Positions 1-36,472 of a stretch of 39,856 nt of DNA are shown piece after piece. A program made the translations under genes and the position numbers. The stretch spans positions 1 through 39,856 of IMG/VR virus record IMGVR_UViG_3300027804_000106; one strand, given 5' to 3'. Below the pieces are notes generated by a model, which worked only from the letters and a program-made list of their open reading frames with translations, did not search any database and was not told the DNA's origin. The stretch comes from a virus. Its lineage: Duplodnaviria; Caudoviricetes. How positions within the stretch are numbered: the stretch's first letter is position 1; the number at the start of each line of letters is the position of its first letter.

Positions 1-233
1 AACATATCTCTACTTGCTATTGCACTTGCCTCACTCTTCTCTAGCACCGCTATATCTTTTCTGAGTTGAGTGATCTCATGCAATATATAATCTTGTTCAA
101 ACTCTGTTGCATTCCATTGGTGAGAGGCAACAATATCTTTGAGCTTAATGTTCTCTTCATTTAACATATCAATGACATCAGATAACTCTAATATCCTATG
201 TTCTAAATCTGTATATTGTGGTTTGTCTCTCAT
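1..233 (-). CDS. Hypothetical coiled-coil phage protein, 5' part (runs off window)
   Basis: Manual translation from ATG at 233: MRDKPQYTDLEHRILELSDVIDMLNEENIKLKDIVASHQW...; open to the window edge; follows 247..669 in the same operon. Confidence 0.7.
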   Translation of the reverse strand, partial: MRDKPQYTDLEHRILELSDVIDMLNEENIKLKDIVASHQWNATEFEQDYILHEITQLRKDIAVLEKSEASAIASRDM

Positions 234-246
234 TTATAATTCTATG

Positions 247-669
247 CTACAAATTTACTTCAGTGAATAGGTATGTAGGAACATCATAAAAATATTCCCC
301 TTGACTTACTGCTTTGTTAGGTATCTCAGCGACTGCTGAATCTTTAATCACTTGTGAATCTACATACCATGCACGTTCCATACCTCTTGACACAACAAAA
401 TAAATAGTCTTCTTATTGTTGTTGAATAGTTTATCTTTTCGCTTGGGTATATGGATTGTTTTGAAGGGGCAATGATCCCAATCTCTCATTTCAATTTCAG
501 CATAGCCAATTAACTCTTTATCTTTTTCGATAATGAGATCTACTGCATACTGATTAGGATTGTGCCACGCATTCATTCCCCATGTGGCTTTGATATACTT
601 ACTTACTGCTTCCCTTGCTGGCGGATCACAAGCATCATGCACCGCTTGATTGAATGGCTTTGTCCTCAT
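247..669 (-). CDS. Putative PD-(D/E)XK-like nuclease-fold protein
   Basis: 140 aa; YAVDLII...YAEIEMR resembles the D...ExK/E motif of restriction-endonuclease-like folds. Confidence 0.5.
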   Translation of the reverse strand: MRTKPFNQAVHDACDPPAREAVSKYIKATWGMNAWHNPNQYAVDLIIEKDKELIGYAEIEMRDWDHCPFKTIHIPKRKDKLFNNNKKTIYFVVSRGMERAWYVDSQVIKDSAVAEIPNKAVSQGEYFYDVPTYLFTEVNL

Positions 670-862
670 AGTATTGCTTATTTCTTTGCCCTCTCTCTGT
701 TGGTTTTGGTAATACGATGTATCCCTCTGCTTCTAACTTCTTTAATCTGCGGTAGTTTGTATGGCAATTCTTAATGATGTCATCTATCGTAGCACTTGGA
801 TATCCTACAACATAAAACAAGATTTTATTTGCCATCTTCCTGTCATCAACTTTTGTATACAT
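635..862 (-). CDS. Small basic protein, possible winged-helix DNA-binding protein
   Basis: 75 aa; ATIDDIIKNCHTNYRRLKKLEAEGYI resembles a wHTH; TAATG overlap with the upstream ORF. Confidence 0.5.
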   Translation of the reverse strand: MYTKVDDRKMANKILFYVVGYPSATIDDIIKNCHTNYRRLKKLEAEGYIVLPKPTERGQRNKQYYEDKAIQSSGA

Positions 863-1020
863 TAAAACTTACTACCCACTTCCTGAAATATTTTCTCGAA
901 TGCTGATGGCTTGAAATCTTGCTTGTTAAATTCAAACATAGTCTTTTTGCCATTAGCGTGTTTAATATATCCCTTAACCAAAACATTTTCAACTATGATT
1001 GTTTTCTTTGTATCAGACAT
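862..1020 (-). CDS. Hypothetical protein (52 aa)
   Basis: Manual: MSDTKKTIIVENVLVKGYIKHANGKKTMFEFNKQDFKPSAFEKIFQEVGSKF; TAATG coupling at both ends. Confidence 0.7.
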   Translation of the reverse strand: MSDTKKTIIVENVLVKGYIKHANGKKTMFEFNKQDFKPSAFEKIFQEVGSKF

Positions 1021-1187
1021 TACTCACCTACCGTTCTATATGATATACCTAGATATATGTTTCTTACATTGTGTTTGTTAAGATTAAATTGTTTAGCTAC
1101 CTTTGGAATAGGCATGGTCTTCAATGCCTTCTTGATTGCTATGACCTGTTCAGTCGTTAAATATTTTTTATGATAAACTTCGCTCAT
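1020..1187 (-). CDS. Small HTH DNA-binding protein (55 aa)
   Basis: Manual: MSEVYHKKYLTTEQVIAIKKALKTMPIPKVAKQFNLNKHNVRNIYLGISYRTVGE; LTxEQV...VAKQFNL...V..I is an HTH pattern; GAGGAGG upstream; TAATG coupling. Confidence 0.65.
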   Translation of the reverse strand: MSEVYHKKYLTTEQVIAIKKALKTMPIPKVAKQFNLNKHNVRNIYLGISYRTVGE

Positions 1188-1360
1188 TAATATGGTGCCT
1201 CCTCGTAATCATTTGTATTAAACACTTCTTTTGGTGTTTTAGGTAACTCTATCACATCTATATCAGGGTGTGAATCTTTATACCATTTAGCTTCTCGTTT
1301 TGACCAACGATATTTCCTGATGATGTCTCCATCATCTACAACTGCGTGAGTAAAATCCAT
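1187..1360 (-). CDS. Hypothetical protein (57 aa), first gene of the left operon
   Basis: Manual: MDFTHAVVDDGDIIRKYRWSKREAKWYKDSHPDIDVIELPKTPKEVFNTNDYEEAPY; RBS AAAGGA upstream. Confidence 0.7.
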   Translation of the reverse strand: MDFTHAVVDDGDIIRKYRWSKREAKWYKDSHPDIDVIELPKTPKEVFNTNDYEEAPY

Positions 1361-1374
1361 ATGATCCTTTCATT

Positions 1375-1689
1375 GTTTTTAGAGATAGCTCCGCCTAGGG
1401 TGAGAAGTAGCACCTTTGATCCATATCAAGCAACACAAGCACACTCAATACCAATCCTACACAGAGTTAATGTTCAATCGACATACAGTAGGCAAGTCAC
1501 CCCAGTCCTGTATATCTTGTGTGATACCCATTTAAGTTCACGAGGCTCGCTTGCGGGTGTAAACAAGGCCTATGTATTCTTCCAAGCAACCCATGTAGGT
1601 TCACTGATATCGTTTGGAGTACGGATAGAAGGGAATAGAAAGATGATGACGTAGAAATACATCATCAACTTTCCTTGTCCAATCTCTCA
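1375..1689 (-). ncRNA. Candidate ~310-nt structured ncRNA or long 5' leader
   Basis: No convincing long ORF; more GC-rich than flanks; stems 1638-1673, 1480-1516, 1559-1604 and 1419-1425/1620-1626 each contain a position that is G.U on the - strand but a C.A mismatch on +; promoter-like element directly upstream. Confidence 0.5.
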
Positions 1690-1695
1690 TTTATT

Positions 1696-1724
1696 AATTT
1701 ACACCTAGTTGGATAAAAAAGCAA
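1696..1724 (-). promoter_or_regulatory. Putative sigma70 promoter
   Basis: - strand TTGCTT-N17-TAAATT, just downstream of the terminator at 1730-1768. Confidence 0.45.
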
Positions 1725-1729
1725 TAGCT

Positions 1730-1768
1730 AGAAAAGAAAAACCCCTAGATGATCAGTCTAAGGGTTTT
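1730..1768 (-). terminator. Rho-independent terminator
   Basis: - strand AAAACCCTTAGA-CTGATCA-TCTAGGGGTTTT followed by TCTTTTCT; the single non-WC pair is U.G on -. Confidence 0.8.
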
Positions 1769-1838
1769 AAGGTGCGAGGGACACCGAGACTTTATCAGAG
1801 AGATTAGATAAAGGAAAGCCGTGAGGAAAGGGACTCAC
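1730..1838 (-). ncRNA. Candidate ~110-nt sRNA with three CU-rich-loop hairpins plus terminator
   Basis: Bounded by a near-consensus promoter (1845-1873) and a terminator; hairpins 1821-1838, 1790-1813, 1771-1785; no ATG-initiated ORF. Confidence 0.65.
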
Positions 1839-1844
1839 AACGAA

Positions 1845-1873
1845 ACTATAACAAACCTGACTATTCCTGTCAA
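1845..1873 (-). promoter_or_regulatory. Strong sigma70 promoter
   Basis: - strand TTGACA-N17-TATAGT (11/12 consensus, optimal spacing). Confidence 0.8.
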
Positions 1874-1877
1874 CATA

Positions 1878-2066
1878 TTTGTAAAAGTTATATAGAAATA
1901 GTTGTATATAACTAAATGTTATATAGAATTAGGCATTATTCATGGTTTTATGGAGGATTTTGTATAGCAAAAGGCGCATTATATTCAATACAAACTAGTT
2001 TGTATGGAGTAAATTACATACAAAGGTGTTTGTATAGCAAAAATAGATCTTTTTTATATACAAAGG
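1878..2066. repeat. AT-rich array of direct and inverted TT(G/A)TAT repeats (operator or origin candidate)
   Basis: ATACAAACTAGTTTGTAT (1988-2005, perfect palindrome); ATACAAAggtgTTTGTAT (2018-2035); TTTGTATAGCAAAA x2 (1959, 2029); GTTATATAGAA x2 (1887, 1918); TAGTTGTATATAACTA (1899-1914). Confidence 0.6.
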
Positions 2067-2074
2067 AAAATATT

Positions 2075-2146
2075 ATGTGGACAACTCCAGCAGCTACAGA
2101 AATGCGTTTTGGCTTTGAAGTAACTATGTACGTAATGAACAAGTAA
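2075..2146 (+). CDS. pqqA: Pyrroloquinoline quinone precursor peptide PqqA (23 aa)
   Basis: MWTTPAATEMRFGFEVTMYVMNK: MWxxP...R(F/L)GFEVTxY signature with the Glu-x3-Tyr pair that becomes PQQ; RBS AAAGGA at 2062-2067. Confidence 0.95.
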   Translation: MWTTPAATEMRFGFEVTMYVMNK

Positions 2147-2181: not shown

Positions 2182-2202
2182 AGGGGACTTATGTCCCCTT
2201 TT
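2182..2202 (+). terminator. Hairpin/terminator-like element overlapping the RBS and ATG of the oxygenase gene
   Basis: AGGGGAC-TTAT-GTCCCCT followed by TTT; ATG 2191-2193 lies in the loop and start of the 3' stem. Confidence 0.55.
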
Positions 2203-2805
2203 GTACGCCATAAATTTGATATAGATGTTGATGAGATAGCCGATAAAGTCTTCAGACTGCAACAGCATTGGATATCTCGTTCAAATGAATTCCCTTTCTA
2301 CACTCTTGGAAGGTGCTCTTACCTAGATGGAAAGACACCAGCTTACCATGAGGAAATCAAGACTCTTAACCCAATACTTATAAAAGAATTTGATAGCTTA
2401 TATGCTATCATTATTGATCACTTATCGAATCAGTTCGGTGAACCTATTGCAATCAGTGATCGTCTAGCAATACCTTCCTTTCATATATTTATGTCAAGTC
2501 CATTCCTGCTTAGCCATGCAGGCCTTTGGCATCAAGACTACCCGCATCTTACATTAGACTTAGGATCAGTTGATCCCTATGCATTCACCGTAGCAATTAA
2601 ACTGCCAAGCGGTGGGGCTGGTATGGATTATATTGAAGATGGGAAACAGAAACATATAGCCTATAAAGAGAAAGAATTTATAGGCCATGATGGCACTATG
2701 CTACATAGGATTGCTGGATTAAAAACTTACGTGAGTGGGGAATACAGGATTACATTACAAGGACATTTGATACGCTTGAATGGCGTATTGACTATGTTTT
2801 GGTAA
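2191..2805 (+). CDS. 2OG-Fe(II) oxygenase superfamily protein
   Basis: HxD (WHQD), FTVAI..PSGGAG strand, distal H (LHRI) and RITLQ Arg: the HxD...H...R arrangement of DSBH dioxygenases. Confidence 0.75.
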   Translation: MSPFVRHKFDIDVDEIADKVFRLQQHWISRSNEFPFYTLGRCSYLDGKTPAYHEEIKTLNPILIKEFDSLYAIIIDHLSNQFGEPIAISDRLAIPSFHIFMSSPFLLSHAGLWHQDYPHLTLDLGSVDPYAFTVAIKLPSGGAGMDYIEDGKQKHIAYKEKEFIGHDGTMLHRIAGLKTYVSGEYRITLQGHLIRLNGVLTMFW

Positions 2806-4155: not shown

Positions 4156-4171
4156 GGTTTCCCTCGTAAGT

Positions 4172-9074: not shown

Positions 9075-9104
9075 GATATTTCCCTTAAAGTAAAATGAGA
9101 TGTA

Positions 9105-33357: not shown

Positions 33358-33920
33358 TATCCTCTAATCTCCATAAGTGTTAATGTGCATCCAACTTCTG
33401 TTGCGCCATTTACATTATTAATAAATGTTTGAAAAACATTACCGTTAGACGCTAATTGAACTTTATATGTTGTGCTACTTGTAGAAGCTGGCGAGTCTAA
33501 AACAATTGTGGATGTTGTTCCTACATCAACTTGAGTAGTAGAGTTCCAAGGTGATTGAGCAGTTTCTGTTGAAAAATCATCAATAGTAGTAGAGTTTCTA
33601 ACTAATCTTAAAGCAACCCTACAATTTCCAGTATTCTTTCCAACACCAACCATTGTTGCAAATACCAAAACTCTATTAGATGCCGATGCTGGAGTAATAG
33701 AGGCACTTAATCCTGTGTCTGCATAAGTAGATGAAGAAGAGGATGTAAAAGTTGAGTAGCCGCTTTGAACCACCTGAACTACACTTCCTGTTGGCATTGC
33801 ATTTGATGTAACTAATGTGCCTGTCGTTGTAGGTAGCGTTAATGTTGTACTTCCTGAAACCGCTGGGGCTTGAAGTATGATTGATCCGCTTGTATCGCCT
33901 GATATGGTAACTGAACTCAT
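33357..33920 (-). CDS. Tail fibre-like protein
   Basis: TLTLP..TGT, GSVVQVV, LDSPASTS..TYK, LTLMEI; start MSSVT overlaps upstream TGA. Confidence 0.75.
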   Translation of the reverse strand: MSSVTISGDTSGSIILQAPAVSGSTTLTLPTTTGTLVTSNAMPTGSVVQVVQSGYSTFTSSSSSTYADTGLSASITPASASNRVLVFATMVGVGKNTGNCRVALRLVRNSTTIDDFSTETAQSPWNSTTQVDVGTTSTIVLDSPASTSSTTYKVQLASNGNVFQTFINNVNGATEVGCTLTLMEIRG

Positions 33921-34129
33921 AGCACCACCCATTTACTGCCTGACGGCACGGTTATATTAATACCTGAATTGATTGTTAAAGGACCCACGCTCATCGCACT
34001 TGACCCTGCTGTTATCGTATAACTTGTTGTCACTGTTCTTGTGTTTTCATAAAGAGGTACAGTAGGTGCTAACACTGTGACGTTAGAACTTGTACCTATC
34101 ATTGTATTTTGGACTTTAGTTAATGCCAT
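33917..34129 (-). CDS. Small tail-associated protein
   Basis: YTI....AMSVGP.TI..G..ITVPSGS.WVVL. Confidence 0.75.
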   Translation of the reverse strand: MALTKVQNTMIGTSSNVTVLAPTVPLYENTRTVTTSYTITAGSSAMSVGPLTINSGINITVPSGSKWVVL

Positions 34130-34138
34130 AGTTTATCC

Positions 34139-35101
34139 TTACGCTGTATAGCTTCCTGAAGAATTAAATTGTAATATTGTATTTGCACCTGAAGTAGTAA
34201 CTGTAGGGCTTCCTGTTGTAGTACCTGTGTACTTTGCAGTTGGTATAGAAATAATTACGACTCCTGAGCCACCAGAACCACCAGACCCTGAATTTCTGCC
34301 AGCACCGCCACCACCACCACCAGTATTTGCGGTTCCCGCAGTACCATTTGCACCTATTCCAAGGCCTCCAGCTCCTCCACCACCAGTACCTCCAGAGCCT
34401 GATGAACCAGCTCCTGACCCACCACCGCCACCACCAGCACGAGTTACAGATGAACCAGTAATTGAAGAAGCAGAACCATTACCACCGTTGCCTCCTGCAC
34501 TAAATGCTCCGTTTGAACCAGCAGCGCCAGCACCACCACCACCCCCTCCAGCTACAGTACCAGCTCCTCCATCCCATCCAGATCCAGCACCGCCTACGCT
34601 ACCTTGACCAGTAGTGTTATTAGTTGGGGACGAAGTGTTACTATAACCATTCCCGCCTCCTGATCCTCCAGTACCACCTGGTGAACCTGAGTTATCTGTA
34701 ATACCATTTCCACCGCCTATAGCAGTAAATCCTAGCGCTACAGAATTTGCTCCGCTTGTTGCAGATCCTCCGCCAGCGCCTACAGTTACGCTATATAGTG
34801 TTCCTGGTGATACGCTAGTTGAGCCAGTTAAATACCCGCCAGCGCCACCACCACCGCCTGTCCAAGCATTACCACCACCTCCACCGCCAGCAACAATAAG
34901 GTAGCTAACAGAATATGGTGCCCCTAGATTAAATGGAACCCACGCAGAAGAGTCAGAGCTATACCATTCTGGATTTCCAGTAGTTGTATTAAACCCAACC
35001 ATACCAGCAGTTGCTGGAGATGGACGAGTTCCCGTAGTCCACTGTGGTAGATTCAGTGCAGTGTTTCGTATAAACCCAGCAAATATGTCGGCTTGTGACA
35101 T
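34139..35101 (-). CDS. Glycine-rich tail fibre/RBP with Mtd-N-like N-terminus
   Basis: WTTGTRP....GMVGFNTTTG..EWY; YLIVAGGGGG; ANTGGGGGG; GGSGVVII. Confidence 0.8.
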   Translation of the reverse strand: MSQADIFAGFIRNTALNLPQWTTGTRPSPATAGMVGFNTTTGNPEWYSSDSSAWVPFNLGAPYSVSYLIVAGGGGGGNAWTGGGGGAGGYLTGSTSVSPGTLYSVTVGAGGGSATSGANSVALGFTAIGGGNGITDNSGSPGGTGGSGGGNGYSNTSSPTNNTTGQGSVGGAGSGWDGGAGTVAGGGGGGAGAAGSNGAFSAGGNGGNGSASSITGSSVTRAGGGGGGSGAGSSGSGGTGGGGAGGLGIGANGTAGTANTGGGGGGAGRNSGSGGSGGSGVVIISIPTAKYTGTTTGSPTVTTSGANTILQFNSSGSYTA

Positions 35102-35110
35102 TTATTATCC

Positions 35111-35455
35111 TTATATTACTTCTTTCCAAGAAGTTGATGCTTCATCCCAATTATATACTTTACCATCGTCTGGCATTGCAACGGGTGCTTCCCATAACCA
35201 TGTATCTTCATTAAGAACCCAAGAATTAAAAGGTTTAGGTGCTACGAATACATCGTTAGTTGCATCGTATGTGTAACCAATTCCAGCGTAGTTACCTCTT
35301 AAAGGTCTGCCTTCTGGGTGTTGATTACCATGCGTATTATAGCTTGTTTGAATCCAAGTACCAGGACTTGAATCTACGAATGTATCAAAAAATTCTGGTT
35401 CAGCCACGATGACCTGTGTAACCTTACCGTCTACTACTTTTGCAAAATGACTCAT
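35111..35455 (-). CDS. Tail-fibre-associated protein
   Basis: MSHFAK...WIQTSYN...RGNYAGIGYTYD...F..PKPF.SW......W.APV.MP. Confidence 0.8.
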   Translation of the reverse strand: MSHFAKVVDGKVTQVIVAEPEFFDTFVDSSPGTWIQTSYNTHGNQHPEGRPLRGNYAGIGYTYDATNDVFVAPKPFNSWVLNEDTWLWEAPVAMPDDGKVYNWDEASTSWKEVI

Positions 35456-35464
35456 TGTTTCTCC

Positions 35465-36472
35465 TTATGCTGTATAAGTACCGCTTGCTGTAAATGTAAT
35501 AATTGTATTAGAACCTGAAGTTGTAATTGTCGGTGAACCTGTCGTAGTGCCTGTATAGTTTGCGGTTGGTACGGATAAAATGACCACACCTGAGCCACCA
35601 GAGAAGGGTCCATTAGCAGAACCATTTCCATTACCACCGCCACCACCACCTGTATTAGCAGTGCCAGCAGCTCCACCTCCGCCACTATTAGTAGATCCAG
35701 CACCTCCGCCTCCAGATCCACCAGCTCCTCCTGGTGCACCACCACCTCCACCACCGCCAGCATAAGTTACTGAAGATCCAGTAATTGATGAAGCAGTGCC
35801 AGCACCACCAGCACCACCAGCAGTAGCTCCGTTTGAACCTATAGCACTAGATCCTCCTCCACCAGCACCTGCTAAACCAGTAGCTCCTGTTCCACCTGCA
35901 AATCCTTGTCCAGATGTTGCTGCACCTCCTGTACCACCAGCATATCCACCAAATCCACCACCGCCTCCACCACCAGAGCCACCAGATCTTCCGTTTGGAG
36001 TATTATATCCTCCTGGAGGATAGTTTAATGAACCAGCACCACCCCCGCCAATAGAAGTTACAGTTGTAATGCCCGTGCCTGATAATACAGAGTTAGCTCC
36101 ACTACTTCCTTGAAGCTGTGAAACTGCTCCAGCTCCTCCAGCTCCTACTGTAGCTGAGTATGTTGTACCAGATATTAGAGTAGCTGAACCTGTTAATAAT
36201 CCCCCTGCTCCACCTCCACCACCAGCATTTTCACCGCCACCACCACCACCTGCAATAACTAAATAAGTAGCTGAATAAGTATTTCCTGCTGTTCCTGCAT
36301 TTGTCCAACCAATAGCACCATAAATCTCTAGTTGACCTGTAGTAGTATTGTAACCAAGTTGTCCTATTACGGGGCTTGAAGGGCGTGTAGCTGTAGTCCA
36401 AGTAGCCACAGATAATCCTGTAGAACTATCTAGTGTACTTGATCCTGATGCTCCAGTTAATATGAGTGCCAT
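35465..36472 (-). CDS. Glycine-rich tail fibre/RBP, paralog of 34139..35101
   Basis: WTTATRP....GQLGYNTTTG..EIY; same Gly-rich architecture and closely similar C-terminus. Confidence 0.8.
   Translation of the reverse strand: MALILTGASGSSTLDSSTGLSVATWTTATRPSSPVIGQLGYNTTTGQLEIYGAIGWTNAGTAGNTYSATYLVIAGGGGGGENAGGGGGAGGLLTGSATLISGTTYSATVGAGGAGAVSQLQGSSGANSVLSGTGITTVTSIGGGGAGSLNYPPGGYNTPNGRSGGSGGGGGGGFGGYAGGTGGAATSGQGFAGGTGATGLAGAGGGGSSAIGSNGATAGGAGGAGTASSITGSSVTYAGGGGGGGAPGGAGGSGGGGAGSTNSGGGGAAGTANTGGGGGGNGNGSANGPFSGGSGVVILSVPTANYTGTTTGSPTITTSGSNTIITFTASGTYTA

What the first reader, a model, noticed from the sequence alone, without database searches (positions are those of the whole stretch)
1730..1873. 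Self-contained ~110-nt phage sRNA gene with anti-Shine-Dalgarno loops
Seen: TTGACA-N17-TATAGT, then three hairpins with pyrimidine loops UCCCUUUC (1826-1833), UAAUCUCUCU (1797-1806) and UCCCUCG (1775-1781), a UUUCC linker, and an intrinsic terminator; no ORF. Established: C/U-rich loop sRNAs (S. aureus RNAIII and RsaE, alphaproteobacterial cuckoo RNAs) repress translation by pairing with RBSs. Inference: a strongly expressed early phage sRNA acting as a multi-target translational repressor of host or phage mRNAs.
Basis: partly seen in the sequence, partly recalled or inferred. Interest (0 to 1): 0.85.

Follow-up and report, generated by a model that had tools for sequence, protein, structure and literature searches.

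The report
Phage RNA brake on own genes
A freshwater phage carries a conserved, free-standing small-RNA gene whose middle mirrors the start of the replication-operon transcript next door and whose first loop mirrors a private ribosome-binding tag on the phage's own early genes, and both matches change in step across relatives, so one RNA likely switches the phage's early and replication genes off together.

Summary
In detail: promoter, hairpins, loops and terminator are at the stated coordinates, and the unit recurs with covarying stems in 21 relatives. No Rfam family matches. The targets are the phage's own RNAs, not the host's. (1) The variable middle (1820-1798) is antisense to the 5' end of the transcript starting right behind it (1688-1667), a structured leader of an operon that in relatives reaches helicase and primase; cognate pairs beat swapped pairs, also in 9 of 10 held-out units. 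(2) The complement of loop 1 lies in the ribosome-binding region of 55 of 314 non-late versus 4 of 267 late genes of seven related phages and 5 of 378 genes of a candidate host; sister clades with other loops carry other tags. (3) In 9 of 21 units, not in the window, tandem NrdR-type boxes overlap the promoter, which would tie the RNA to host dATP. No transcript was seen; repression is inferred. It works like P4 CI and P1 C4 RNA but is not a member. The scan noted the leader match before on two other genomes; the loop-tag covariation and NrdR link for this family were tested here.

The parts
1845..1873 (-). Promoter of the sRNA (TTGACA-17-TATAGT)
   Evidence: -35/-10 kept in all 21 sequences (they were found by this pattern) while the spacer varies
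1730..1839 (-). sRNA gene (RNA1), about 110 nt; ends inferred from promoter and terminator
1821..1838 (-). Hairpin 1; loop 1833-1826 UCCCUUUC = host 16S tail with one U-to-C change; complement of the early-gene tag GAAAGGGA
1798..1820 (-). Variable middle segment, antisense to the 5' arm of the adjacent leader
   Evidence: (repeat I20)
1771..1785 (-). Hairpin 3; loop UCCCUCG, complement of the RBS of the window's metallophosphoesterase gene
1730..1768 (-). Intrinsic terminator of the sRNA
   Evidence: 98% of cells paired, 6 of 12 pairs change on both sides
1696..1724 (-). Second promoter (TTGCTT-17-TAAATT); start inferred near 1690
   Evidence: conserved at this place in the aligned relatives; too weak at -35 to be listed
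1667..1688 (-). Target of the sRNA middle: purine-rich 5' arm of the leader
   Evidence: best non-self site of 13,274 windows in the window, -28.1 kcal/mol; next -27.1
1624..1688 (-). Long imperfect leader hairpin; inner hairpin 1667-1644 followed by a C/U-rich arm
1385..1623 (-). Conserved structured non-coding core of the leader, function unknown, no Rfam match
   Evidence: (24 of 34 pairs change on both sides)
1365..1371 (-). RBS GAAAGGA of the first gene behind the leader (6-nt match to loop 1)
3..1360 (-). First six genes of the controlled operon; in the two near-complete relatives it goes on to a helicase and a Toprim primase
4160..4166 (-). RBS CGAGGGA of the metallophosphoesterase gene (start 4155), 7-nt complement of loop 3
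9081..9086 (-). RBS AAGGGA of the gene at the head of the middle gene block (start 9074), 6-nt match to loop 1
1875..1932 (.). Operator-like repeats 31 bp apart directly upstream of the sRNA promoter; relatives carry NrdR-type box pairs here, the window does not
   Evidence: (D3, D6, D9)
2075..2146 (+). pqqA (23 aa), the clue to a Methylophilaceae host
   Evidence: PF08042, E 3e-10

Best explanation
The unit is a conserved stand-alone small-RNA gene of a lytic-type phage that likely infects Methylophilaceae, and its RNA likely represses the phage's own non-late genes in trans by two modules that co-vary with their matches in the same genome. Module 1: the variable middle pairs over about 20 bp with the first bases of the transcript made from the promoter right behind it. 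Without the sRNA these bases fold back on a C/U-rich arm; binding is predicted to be favourable only while the leader is being made, and would leave an inner hairpin followed by an unpaired, G-poor C/U tract, a likely Rho-dependent or intrinsic stop before the helicase-primase operon. Module 2: loop 1 (and for some genes loop 3) pairs with a private Shine-Dalgarno variant on early and middle mRNAs. The loop is the host 16S tail with one U changed to C, so the tag pairs by G-U wobble with the ribosome but by G-C with the sRNA, while late genes and most host genes escape. In about half of the relatives the promoter carries NrdR-type boxes, so the brake would be released when host dATP is plentiful and applied when it falls. 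Shown: sequences, conservation, covariation, motif distributions. Inferred: transcription, pairing in the cell, repression as the outcome, the way of termination, the purpose.
For: Leader match: cognate -24.3 versus swapped -17.4 kcal/mol, 0 of 100,000 permutations, 21 units; within clade A 0 of 100,000, within clade B 435 of 100,000, and 10 of 10 nearest-neighbour swaps worse than cognate; 10 held-out units from distant relatives -29.2 versus -21.0, 0 of 100,000, 9 of 10 with column rank 1-5 of 31. RNA level and strand: 26 G-U versus 10 A-C in the duplex, sense better in 17 of 21. Kinetic window: net -18.2 kcal/mol on the nascent leader (20 of 21 below -5) versus +0.6 on the folded one; arm unpaired 0.21 to 0.86; arm 28% C, 52% U, 4% G. 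A gate at this place is the rule: 34 of 36 relatives of the other leader type have a long hairpin with U tract before the same core. RBS tags: loop-1 complement in 55 of 314 non-late versus 4 of 267 late genes, AAGGAG 11% versus 12%; GAAAGG 39 of 314 versus 2 of 267 versus 3 of 378 host genes, GAAAGGG 17, 0, 0. Tags switch with loops: clade B GAGAGG before 6 of 51 non-late genes against 2 of 314 in clade A; clade C CTGCTAGGA 5, 7 and 4 copies against 0 in 7 other records, at transcript starts and RBSs. One orthologous gene (metallophosphoesterase) has an RBS matching loop 1 in 7 and loop 3 in 4 of 11 clade-A units, and AGAGAGG in clade B. Energies: tag -12.6 with loop 1 versus -8.9 with 16S; late TAAGGAG -4.4 versus -8.2. 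Hfq, Rho and NrdR in 5 of 5 candidate hosts. NrdR-type pairs.
Against: No transcript seen (0 of 6 RNA runs cover the gene). The window lacks the early block, and its own count is 2 of 27 versus 0 of 30, p 0.22; G003 0.61, G004 0.054. The seven clade-A genomes are related, so the pooled p overstates; there are only three clades, and clade B rests on one genome (6 of 51 versus 0 of 24, p 0.17). The reversed-motif control was also enriched (28 of 314 versus 10 of 267, p 0.012; it overlaps the tag's own flank), and loop 3's complement is not enriched genome-wide (3 of 314 versus 1 of 267). GAAAGG is also a plain complement of the 16S tail, and for the window's first gene 16S wins (-9.4 versus -7.8). 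Exceptions to the leader match: L010 (row rank 15, column rank 9 of 21), L046 (column rank 16), L070; in G001 the leader is not among the 8 best sites. Loop energies treat loops as free strands. The freed tract is only about 25 nt, short for a Rho site (own knowledge). The window itself has no NrdR-type pair (score -10.5).
Confidence: 0.66

Rival explanations
1. Leader-only regulator: the sRNA acts on the adjacent leader alone; the conserved C/U loops serve stability, Hfq binding or first contact, and the GAAAGG-type RBSs of early genes are ordinary Shine-Dalgarno sequences spread by repeated upstream cassettes.
For: The leader match is the longest and best-tested signal. GAAAGG pairs with the 16S tail anyway. 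Some early genes share hairpin-like upstream stretches (seen). The window's own RBS count is not significant. Two earlier agents read it this way.
Against: Tags switch with loops between clades and at one orthologous gene outside the early block; in L105 and L127 the only match near the core is the RBS site, not the leader; late genes use AAGGAG in all clades.
Confidence: 0.15
2. Activator of the replication operon: the long leader hairpin with its U-rich end is itself the terminator, and the sRNA weakens it by taking away the 5' arm, so replication genes are turned on while early genes are turned off.
For: The inner hairpin plus U tract scores as terminator-like with or without the 5' arm; in the other leader type the long hairpin before the core is the terminator. 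An early-off, replication-on switch would also fit a time course.
Against: The first gene behind the leader also carries a loop-1 match in 12 of 14 clade-A units (6 nt), which points to repression of the same operon; the inner hairpin survives binding in most units.
Confidence: 0.09
3. Host-directed or general anti-Shine-Dalgarno RNA that dampens host translation.
For: Loop 1 resembles the 16S tail, and in L015 it equals 10 nt of it. 'Toxic small RNAs' of Burkholderia are toxic in E. coli (PMC4603805, passages).
Against: Loop-1 complements before only 5 of 378 host genes (one candidate host, 400 kb of 1.27 Mb, crude gene calls); covariation is with phage sequences; no RF02278 match.
Confidence: 0.05
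4. DNA-level or opposite-strand feature: the match is an inverted repeat kept by gene conversion, or the + strand RNA is a GGA-loop sponge for CsrA.
For: Both strands fold equally well; the match also holds, more weakly, on the opposite strand (-21.5 versus -16.4).
Against: G-U outnumbers A-C 26 to 10; promoter and U tail are on the - strand; CsrA in 0 of 5 candidate hosts.
Confidence: 0.03

Closest known systems
CI RNA of satellite phage-plasmid P4 with seqA/seqC (PMC4825925, passages seen; primary papers not read)
   Same: A phage RNA that pairs in trans with imperfect complements in the leader of the phage's own replication operon and is inferred here, shown there, to stop transcription early.
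   Different: CI is cut out of the very transcript it controls, with targets on both sides; RNA1 is a separate gene with its own promoter and terminator upstream of its target, adds a multi-gene RBS module, and sits in phages with no integrase found (0 of 5 records).
C4 antisense RNA of phages P1/P7, Rfam RF01695 (PMC5320573, and PMC8201110; passages seen)
   Same: Two exposed single-stranded modules, one that covers a ribosome-binding site and one variable part that gives phage-specific matching.
   Different: No sequence or structure match; C4 is a 77-nt RNase P product that controls one operon (icd-ant) to keep lysogeny; RNA1 is three hairpins in a row with tags on many genes and no antirepressor target was found.
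Start-associated sequences (SAS) of Cluster K mycobacteriophages (PMC3203893, passages seen)
   Same: A private motif at the RBS position of non-structural genes only, rare in the host; the authors left open whether an RNA or protein binds it.
   Different: SAS is a 13-bp repeat with no reader named in the passages seen; here the tag is a 6-8-nt Shine-Dalgarno variant and a matching RNA is encoded in the same genome.
   Same: Pyrimidine-rich hairpin loops suited to pairing with ribosome-binding sites.
   Different: No Rfam match; no CCUCCUCCC loop; phage-encoded with phage targets; no counterpart in 20 Methylophilaceae genomes.
sar RNA of P22, OOP of lambda, PreS, VpdS (PMC12197685, parts 1-2 of 6 read)
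   Same: Phage-encoded regulatory RNAs acting by base pairing.
   Different: Those are cis-antisense to one phage gene or act on host mRNAs or Hfq; none in the parts read silences a tagged set of the phage's own genes.

Membership tests
C4 antisense RNA (RF01695) | Match to the covariance model | tested here: not met
   no match at E<=1 in the window or at E<=0.1 in 11 related loci
C4 antisense RNA (RF01695) | Three-stem fold processed by RNase P from a longer leader | tested here: not met
   fold is three hairpins in series between a promoter and a terminator; processing itself not testable
C4 antisense RNA (RF01695) | Exposed modules complementary to own-phage targets, one covering an RBS, one variable | tested here: met
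C4 antisense RNA (RF01695) | Controls an icd-antirepressor operon in a temperate phage | tested here: not met
   operon leads to helicase and primase; no integrase in 5 records; no repressor or antirepressor family among 49 of 52 non-late proteins of G002
P4 CI RNA system | RNA lies inside the transcript it controls, between seqA and seqC | tested here: not met
   separate gene with its own terminator before the second promoter
P4 CI RNA system | Pairing with the 5' leader of the replication operon | tested here: met
   (complementarity and covariation; pairing in the cell not shown)
P4 CI RNA system | Pairing causes premature termination | not testable with these tools
   folding is compatible; Rho present in candidate hosts
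Cuckoo RNAs / RsaE / RNAIII | Match to their Rfam models; CCUCCUCCC or UCCC loops on their scaffold (motifs recalled) | tested here: not met
   loops are UCCCUUUC and UCCCUCG, so only the short UCCC word is shared
Betaproteobacteria toxic sRNA (RF02278) | Match to the model; chromosomal intergenic gene | tested here: not met
   11 weak matches in 10 of 20 host genomes were plain terminators without C/U loops
CsrB/RsmZ-type sponge (+ strand) | GGA loops on a transcribed strand in a host with CsrA | tested here: not met
   no + strand promoter listed near the unit; CsrA in 0 of 5 candidate hosts
NrdR-regulated promoter | Two 16-bp boxes (C4, A6, A8, T9, T11, G13) 31-32 bp apart overlapping the promoter (PMC13584703; PMC2892513) | tested here: not met
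   not met in the window (score -10.5); met in 9 of 21 clade A/B units (22.7-32.2, background 99.9th percentile 10.5) and weakly in 3 of 6 clade C units
NrdR-regulated promoter | Binding of dATP/ATP-loaded NrdR | not testable with these tools
   NrdR present in 5 of 5 candidate hosts

The most novel reading that the evidence does not exclude
A protein-free master switch of a lytic phage family: one small RNA reads a clade-specific bar code written into the Shine-Dalgarno sequences of early genes (a wobble variant that the ribosome tolerates and the sRNA prefers), closes the replication operon through its leader, and is wired to the host's dNTP sensor NrdR, so that the phage pauses or shifts phase according to the nucleotide state of a starved host; bar-code changes would also define immunity groups among co-infecting relatives.
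Probability: 0.3. Interest if true: 0.92.

Novelty: new variant of a known kind. Interest (0 to 1): 0.76.

Why it matters
Phage antisense RNAs known from the papers read control one operon in temperate phages or act on the host. If this reading is right, an abundant group of freshwater phages times or pauses its own early programme with one RNA and a bar-coded ribosome-binding site, without a protein repressor, and in many members takes its cue from the host's dATP sensor. It offers a concrete, testable answer to what private start-associated motifs on non-structural phage genes are for (left open in PMC3203893), a candidate mechanism for stalled infection in slow-growing lake bacteria, and natural sets of orthogonal sRNA-target pairs that can be tested in E. 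coli reporters.

Tried and rejected
Rfam: nothing near the unit at E<=1; nothing in 11 related loci at E<=0.1. Annotated phages: matches only over pqqA and, in MW202674.1, over the leader core; none over the sRNA. Plasmids: no match. Leader-core pattern in GTDB genomes: 0, so no prophage and no direct host. Host copy of the sRNA: none in 20 Methylophilaceae genomes; the 11 weak matches were terminators. A 32-aa ORF in the leader (1668-1570) was dropped as a toxin-antitoxin partner because indels shift its frame among relatives (seen). One of 14 pattern matches (L013) was a chance hairpin in unrelated context. 25 of 52 loci with the neighbouring 57-aa gene have neither core nor sRNA within the fetched flank. 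Whole-leader folds with and without the sRNA were inconsistent between relatives and were not used; only the local hairpin was. Pair counts include non-member rows and were replaced. Metatranscriptomes: contigs of relatives cover the leader core in 5 of 6 RNA runs and the sRNA in 0 of 6; contigs cannot show strand, ends or absence, and DNA may be present, so neither result is used as evidence. In one search the metallophosphoesterase RBS printed for L008 and L010 came from L002's record (same first 60 nt) and these two rows were dropped before counting (11 units remain). Literature searches that gave no description of this RNA: (0 papers); most subscription papers are outside the library and no supplements were read, so the table of 38 undescribed phage sRNAs in PMC12197685 was not seen.

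Full report
Setting. The window is a 39,856-base virus record with no further contigs. It holds virion genes (9.5-39.8 kb), a block of recombination and nuclease genes (Erf, exonuclease, RusA, metallophosphoesterase) and, at its cut left end, the start of an operon of small genes. A 23-codon pqqA at 2075-2146 (PF08042) matches Methylophilales phages and Methylophilaceae chromosomes; the host is inferred from this alone. The window lacks the helicase, primase and early-gene block that near-complete relatives have.

Observation. The fold is far better than shuffles (z -4.8), but the decisive evidence is comparative. A pattern scan gave 14 loci, 13 of them true; the neighbouring 57-aa protein gave 52 loci, 27 with the unit nearby. 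Twenty-one distinct sequences share promoter, hairpin 1, hairpin 3 and terminator. On 22 aligned members 11 of 21 pairs change on both sides. Stems change, C/U loops stay. The middle part is variable in sequence and fold. Rfam has no match.

A second unit follows. Directly behind the terminator lies a second promoter and a non-coding leader of about 330 nt. Its first 65-85 nt form a long imperfect hairpin in all 21 units; then comes a 240-nt core with strong covariation (24 of 34 pairs, 31 sequences) and no Rfam match. In G001 and G002 the operon behind it reaches a superfamily II helicase and a Toprim primase.

Module 1: the middle matches the leader. The repeat finder showed an inverted match between 1670-1688 and 1798-1816, seen before I looked at earlier notes; two earlier agents had reported the same on other genomes, so I tested it. 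With 21 units (two near-twins dropped) cognate duplexes average -24.3 against -17.4 kcal/mol for swapped pairs, 0 of 100,000 permutations. The signal stays within clade A (13 units, 0 of 100,000), within clade B (6 units, 435 of 100,000) and in 10 of 10 nearest-neighbour swaps. Ten distant units found later through the core have quite different sequences, and 9 of them match their own leader (column rank 1-5 of 31; -29.2 versus -21.0). Exceptions are L010, L046 and L070. In the window the leader is the best non-self site among 13,274 windows, by a small margin; it is also best in G002, but not among the top 8 in G001. G-U outnumbers A-C 26 to 10, as expected for pairing between the two sense RNAs. 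Binding is predicted to pay only on the nascent leader (-18.2 versus +0.6 kcal/mol) and to free a C/U-rich, G-poor arm behind an inner hairpin. That this stops transcription is inference, helped by two facts: 34 of 36 relatives with the other leader type have a terminator-like hairpin at this very place, and candidate hosts have Rho and Hfq.

Module 2: the loops match the phage's own ribosome-binding sites. The host 16S tail reads CCUCCUUUCU. Loop 1 of the window's clade (UCCCUUUC) is this tail with one U-to-C change; the loops of clade B (CCUCUCU) carry such a change at another position. With genes sorted by position into late and non-late, loop-1 complements stand before 55 of 314 non-late and 4 of 267 late genes of seven clade-A records, while AAGGAG is even. 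Per genome p runs from 0.0001 (G002) to 0.61 (G003); the window gives 2 of 27 versus 0 of 30. In 378 genes called from 400 kb of Methylopumilus universalis the figure is 5. Four phage records in which no sRNA was found have 5 of 74, 3 of 69, 1 of 57 and 1 of 55, against 13 of 104 and 15 of 113 in G001 and G002; they are other phage types, so this control is loose. Clade B uses GAGAGG (6 of 51; clade A 2 of 314) and clade C, whose sRNA shows CCUAGCAG, has CTGCTAGGA 4-7 times at transcript starts and RBSs, among them a ParB-like gene, against 0 in 7 other records. The clearest single case is one orthologous gene: the metallophosphoesterase RBS complements loop 1 in 7 and loop 3 in 4 of 11 clade-A units (the window's is CGAGGGA at 4166-4160), and is AGAGAGG in clade B. 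Free-strand energies favour the sRNA over 16S on the tag and 16S over the sRNA on late sites. Weak points: related genomes, three clades only, crude gene calls, a reversed-motif control that was itself enriched, no genome-wide signal for loop 3, and GAAAGG being a valid Shine-Dalgarno sequence in any case.

Control of the sRNA. Clade-B promoters showed paired palindromes 31 bp apart. I recalled the NrdR box, then checked: NrdR sites are two 16-bp boxes 15-16 bp apart with C4, A6, A8, T9, T11, G13 conserved, bound by the dATP-loaded protein (PMC13584703, passages; PMC2892513, passages; listing). Candidate hosts have NrdR (5 of 5) and such boxes before their reductase genes. A matrix from nine host sites scores box pairs over the sRNA promoter at 22.7-32.2 in 9 of 21 clade A/B units (background 99.9th percentile 10.5) and weakly in 3 of 6 clade C units; the pair is the only one in G002, G035, G026 and G027, and none lies in the 400-kb host sample. 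The window has no such pair; it has other repeats 31 bp apart at the same place, reader unknown.

How it most likely works. Host polymerase makes the sRNA; as it builds up it catches new leaders before they fold and covers tagged RBSs, turning down replication and early genes while late genes are spared. Where NrdR boxes exist, a fall in dATP, from starvation or from phage replication itself, would raise the sRNA. Whether this serves as an early-to-late timer, a pause in starved hosts, or exclusion of like phages cannot be told from sequence; no integrase was found in 5 records, two of them 99-100% complete, and no repressor family among 49 of 52 non-late proteins of G002. Nothing here shows the RNA or its effect: 0 of 6 RNA runs had a contig over it, which says little for a 110-nt RNA.

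Comparison and novelty. It works like P4 CI RNA (leader of the replication operon; PMC4825925, passages) and P1 C4 RNA (RBS-covering plus specificity module; PMC5320573, passages) but fails their membership tests. The tag side recalls the start-associated sequences of Cluster K mycobacteriophages (PMC3203893, passages). A 2025 review (PMC12197685, parts 1-2 of 6 read) and the PreS preprint (10.1101/2024.10.31.621285, abstract and introduction read) describe no such self-directed regulon in the parts read, and searches gave no paper on this RNA. The scan itself has noted the leader match in this family twice and the loop-tag theme in other phage families; these are unchecked notes, not support. 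Verdict: a real RNA gene, a new variant of phage antisense control, interest 0.76.

Noticed in passing
window 1385-1623 (-); alignment A3: A 240-nt structured non-coding core precedes the replication operon in phages with at least two different upstream control modules; two hairpins with UAAAU-type loops, an invariant GGUG with two possible CACC partners; no Rfam match. Function unknown (antiterminator, primer RNA or origin are guesses).
   Followed up: partly
L069, L071, L072, L076, L078, L083, L104, L116 and others, about 75-260 nt upstream of the core motif: Relatives of the other leader type have a long terminator hairpin whose 5-9-nt bulge is the exact complement of a stretch near the transcript's 5' end: 6 nt or more in 30 of 31 units, 22 distinct bulges, 9% among swapped pairs. 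It looks like a SeqA/IsrK-type attenuator family with no Rfam match.
   Followed up: partly
L025, L026, L034, L044, L046, L023, L005, L006, L015, about -75 to -10 of the sRNA start: Tandem NrdR-type boxes over a phage promoter that drives an RNA, not a reductase gene.
   Followed up: yes
window 2075-2146 (+): Phage-borne pqqA below the ORF cut-off; upstream inverted repeats of TTTGTAT type at 1959-2064. Already noted many times by the scan.
   Followed up: partly
L010 (IMGVR_UViG_3300032329_000582) 211-520: sRNA middle identical to that of L002 but a different leader: a natural mismatch, possibly a recombinant or an assembly chimera.
   Followed up: no
L105 and L127, about 320-470 nt upstream of the core motif: These phages carry both a CCUAGCAG-type sRNA and the terminator-type leader; the sRNA matches only the RBS tag behind the core.
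   Followed up: partly
L015 432-559: Loop 1 equals 10 nt of the host 16S tail exactly; the first gene behind the core has an AGGAGG site. The record is too short to count tags.
   Followed up: no
window 2191-2805 (+): A 204-aa gene beside pqqA on the strand opposite to its neighbours, with HxD...H-like residues suggesting a 2-oxoglutarate/Fe(II) oxygenase (by eye; no Pfam match, weak PHROG of unknown function).
   Followed up: no
window 33917-36472 (-): Several glycine-rich virion-type genes in tandem; two match the same PHROG (phrog_2295).
   Followed up: no
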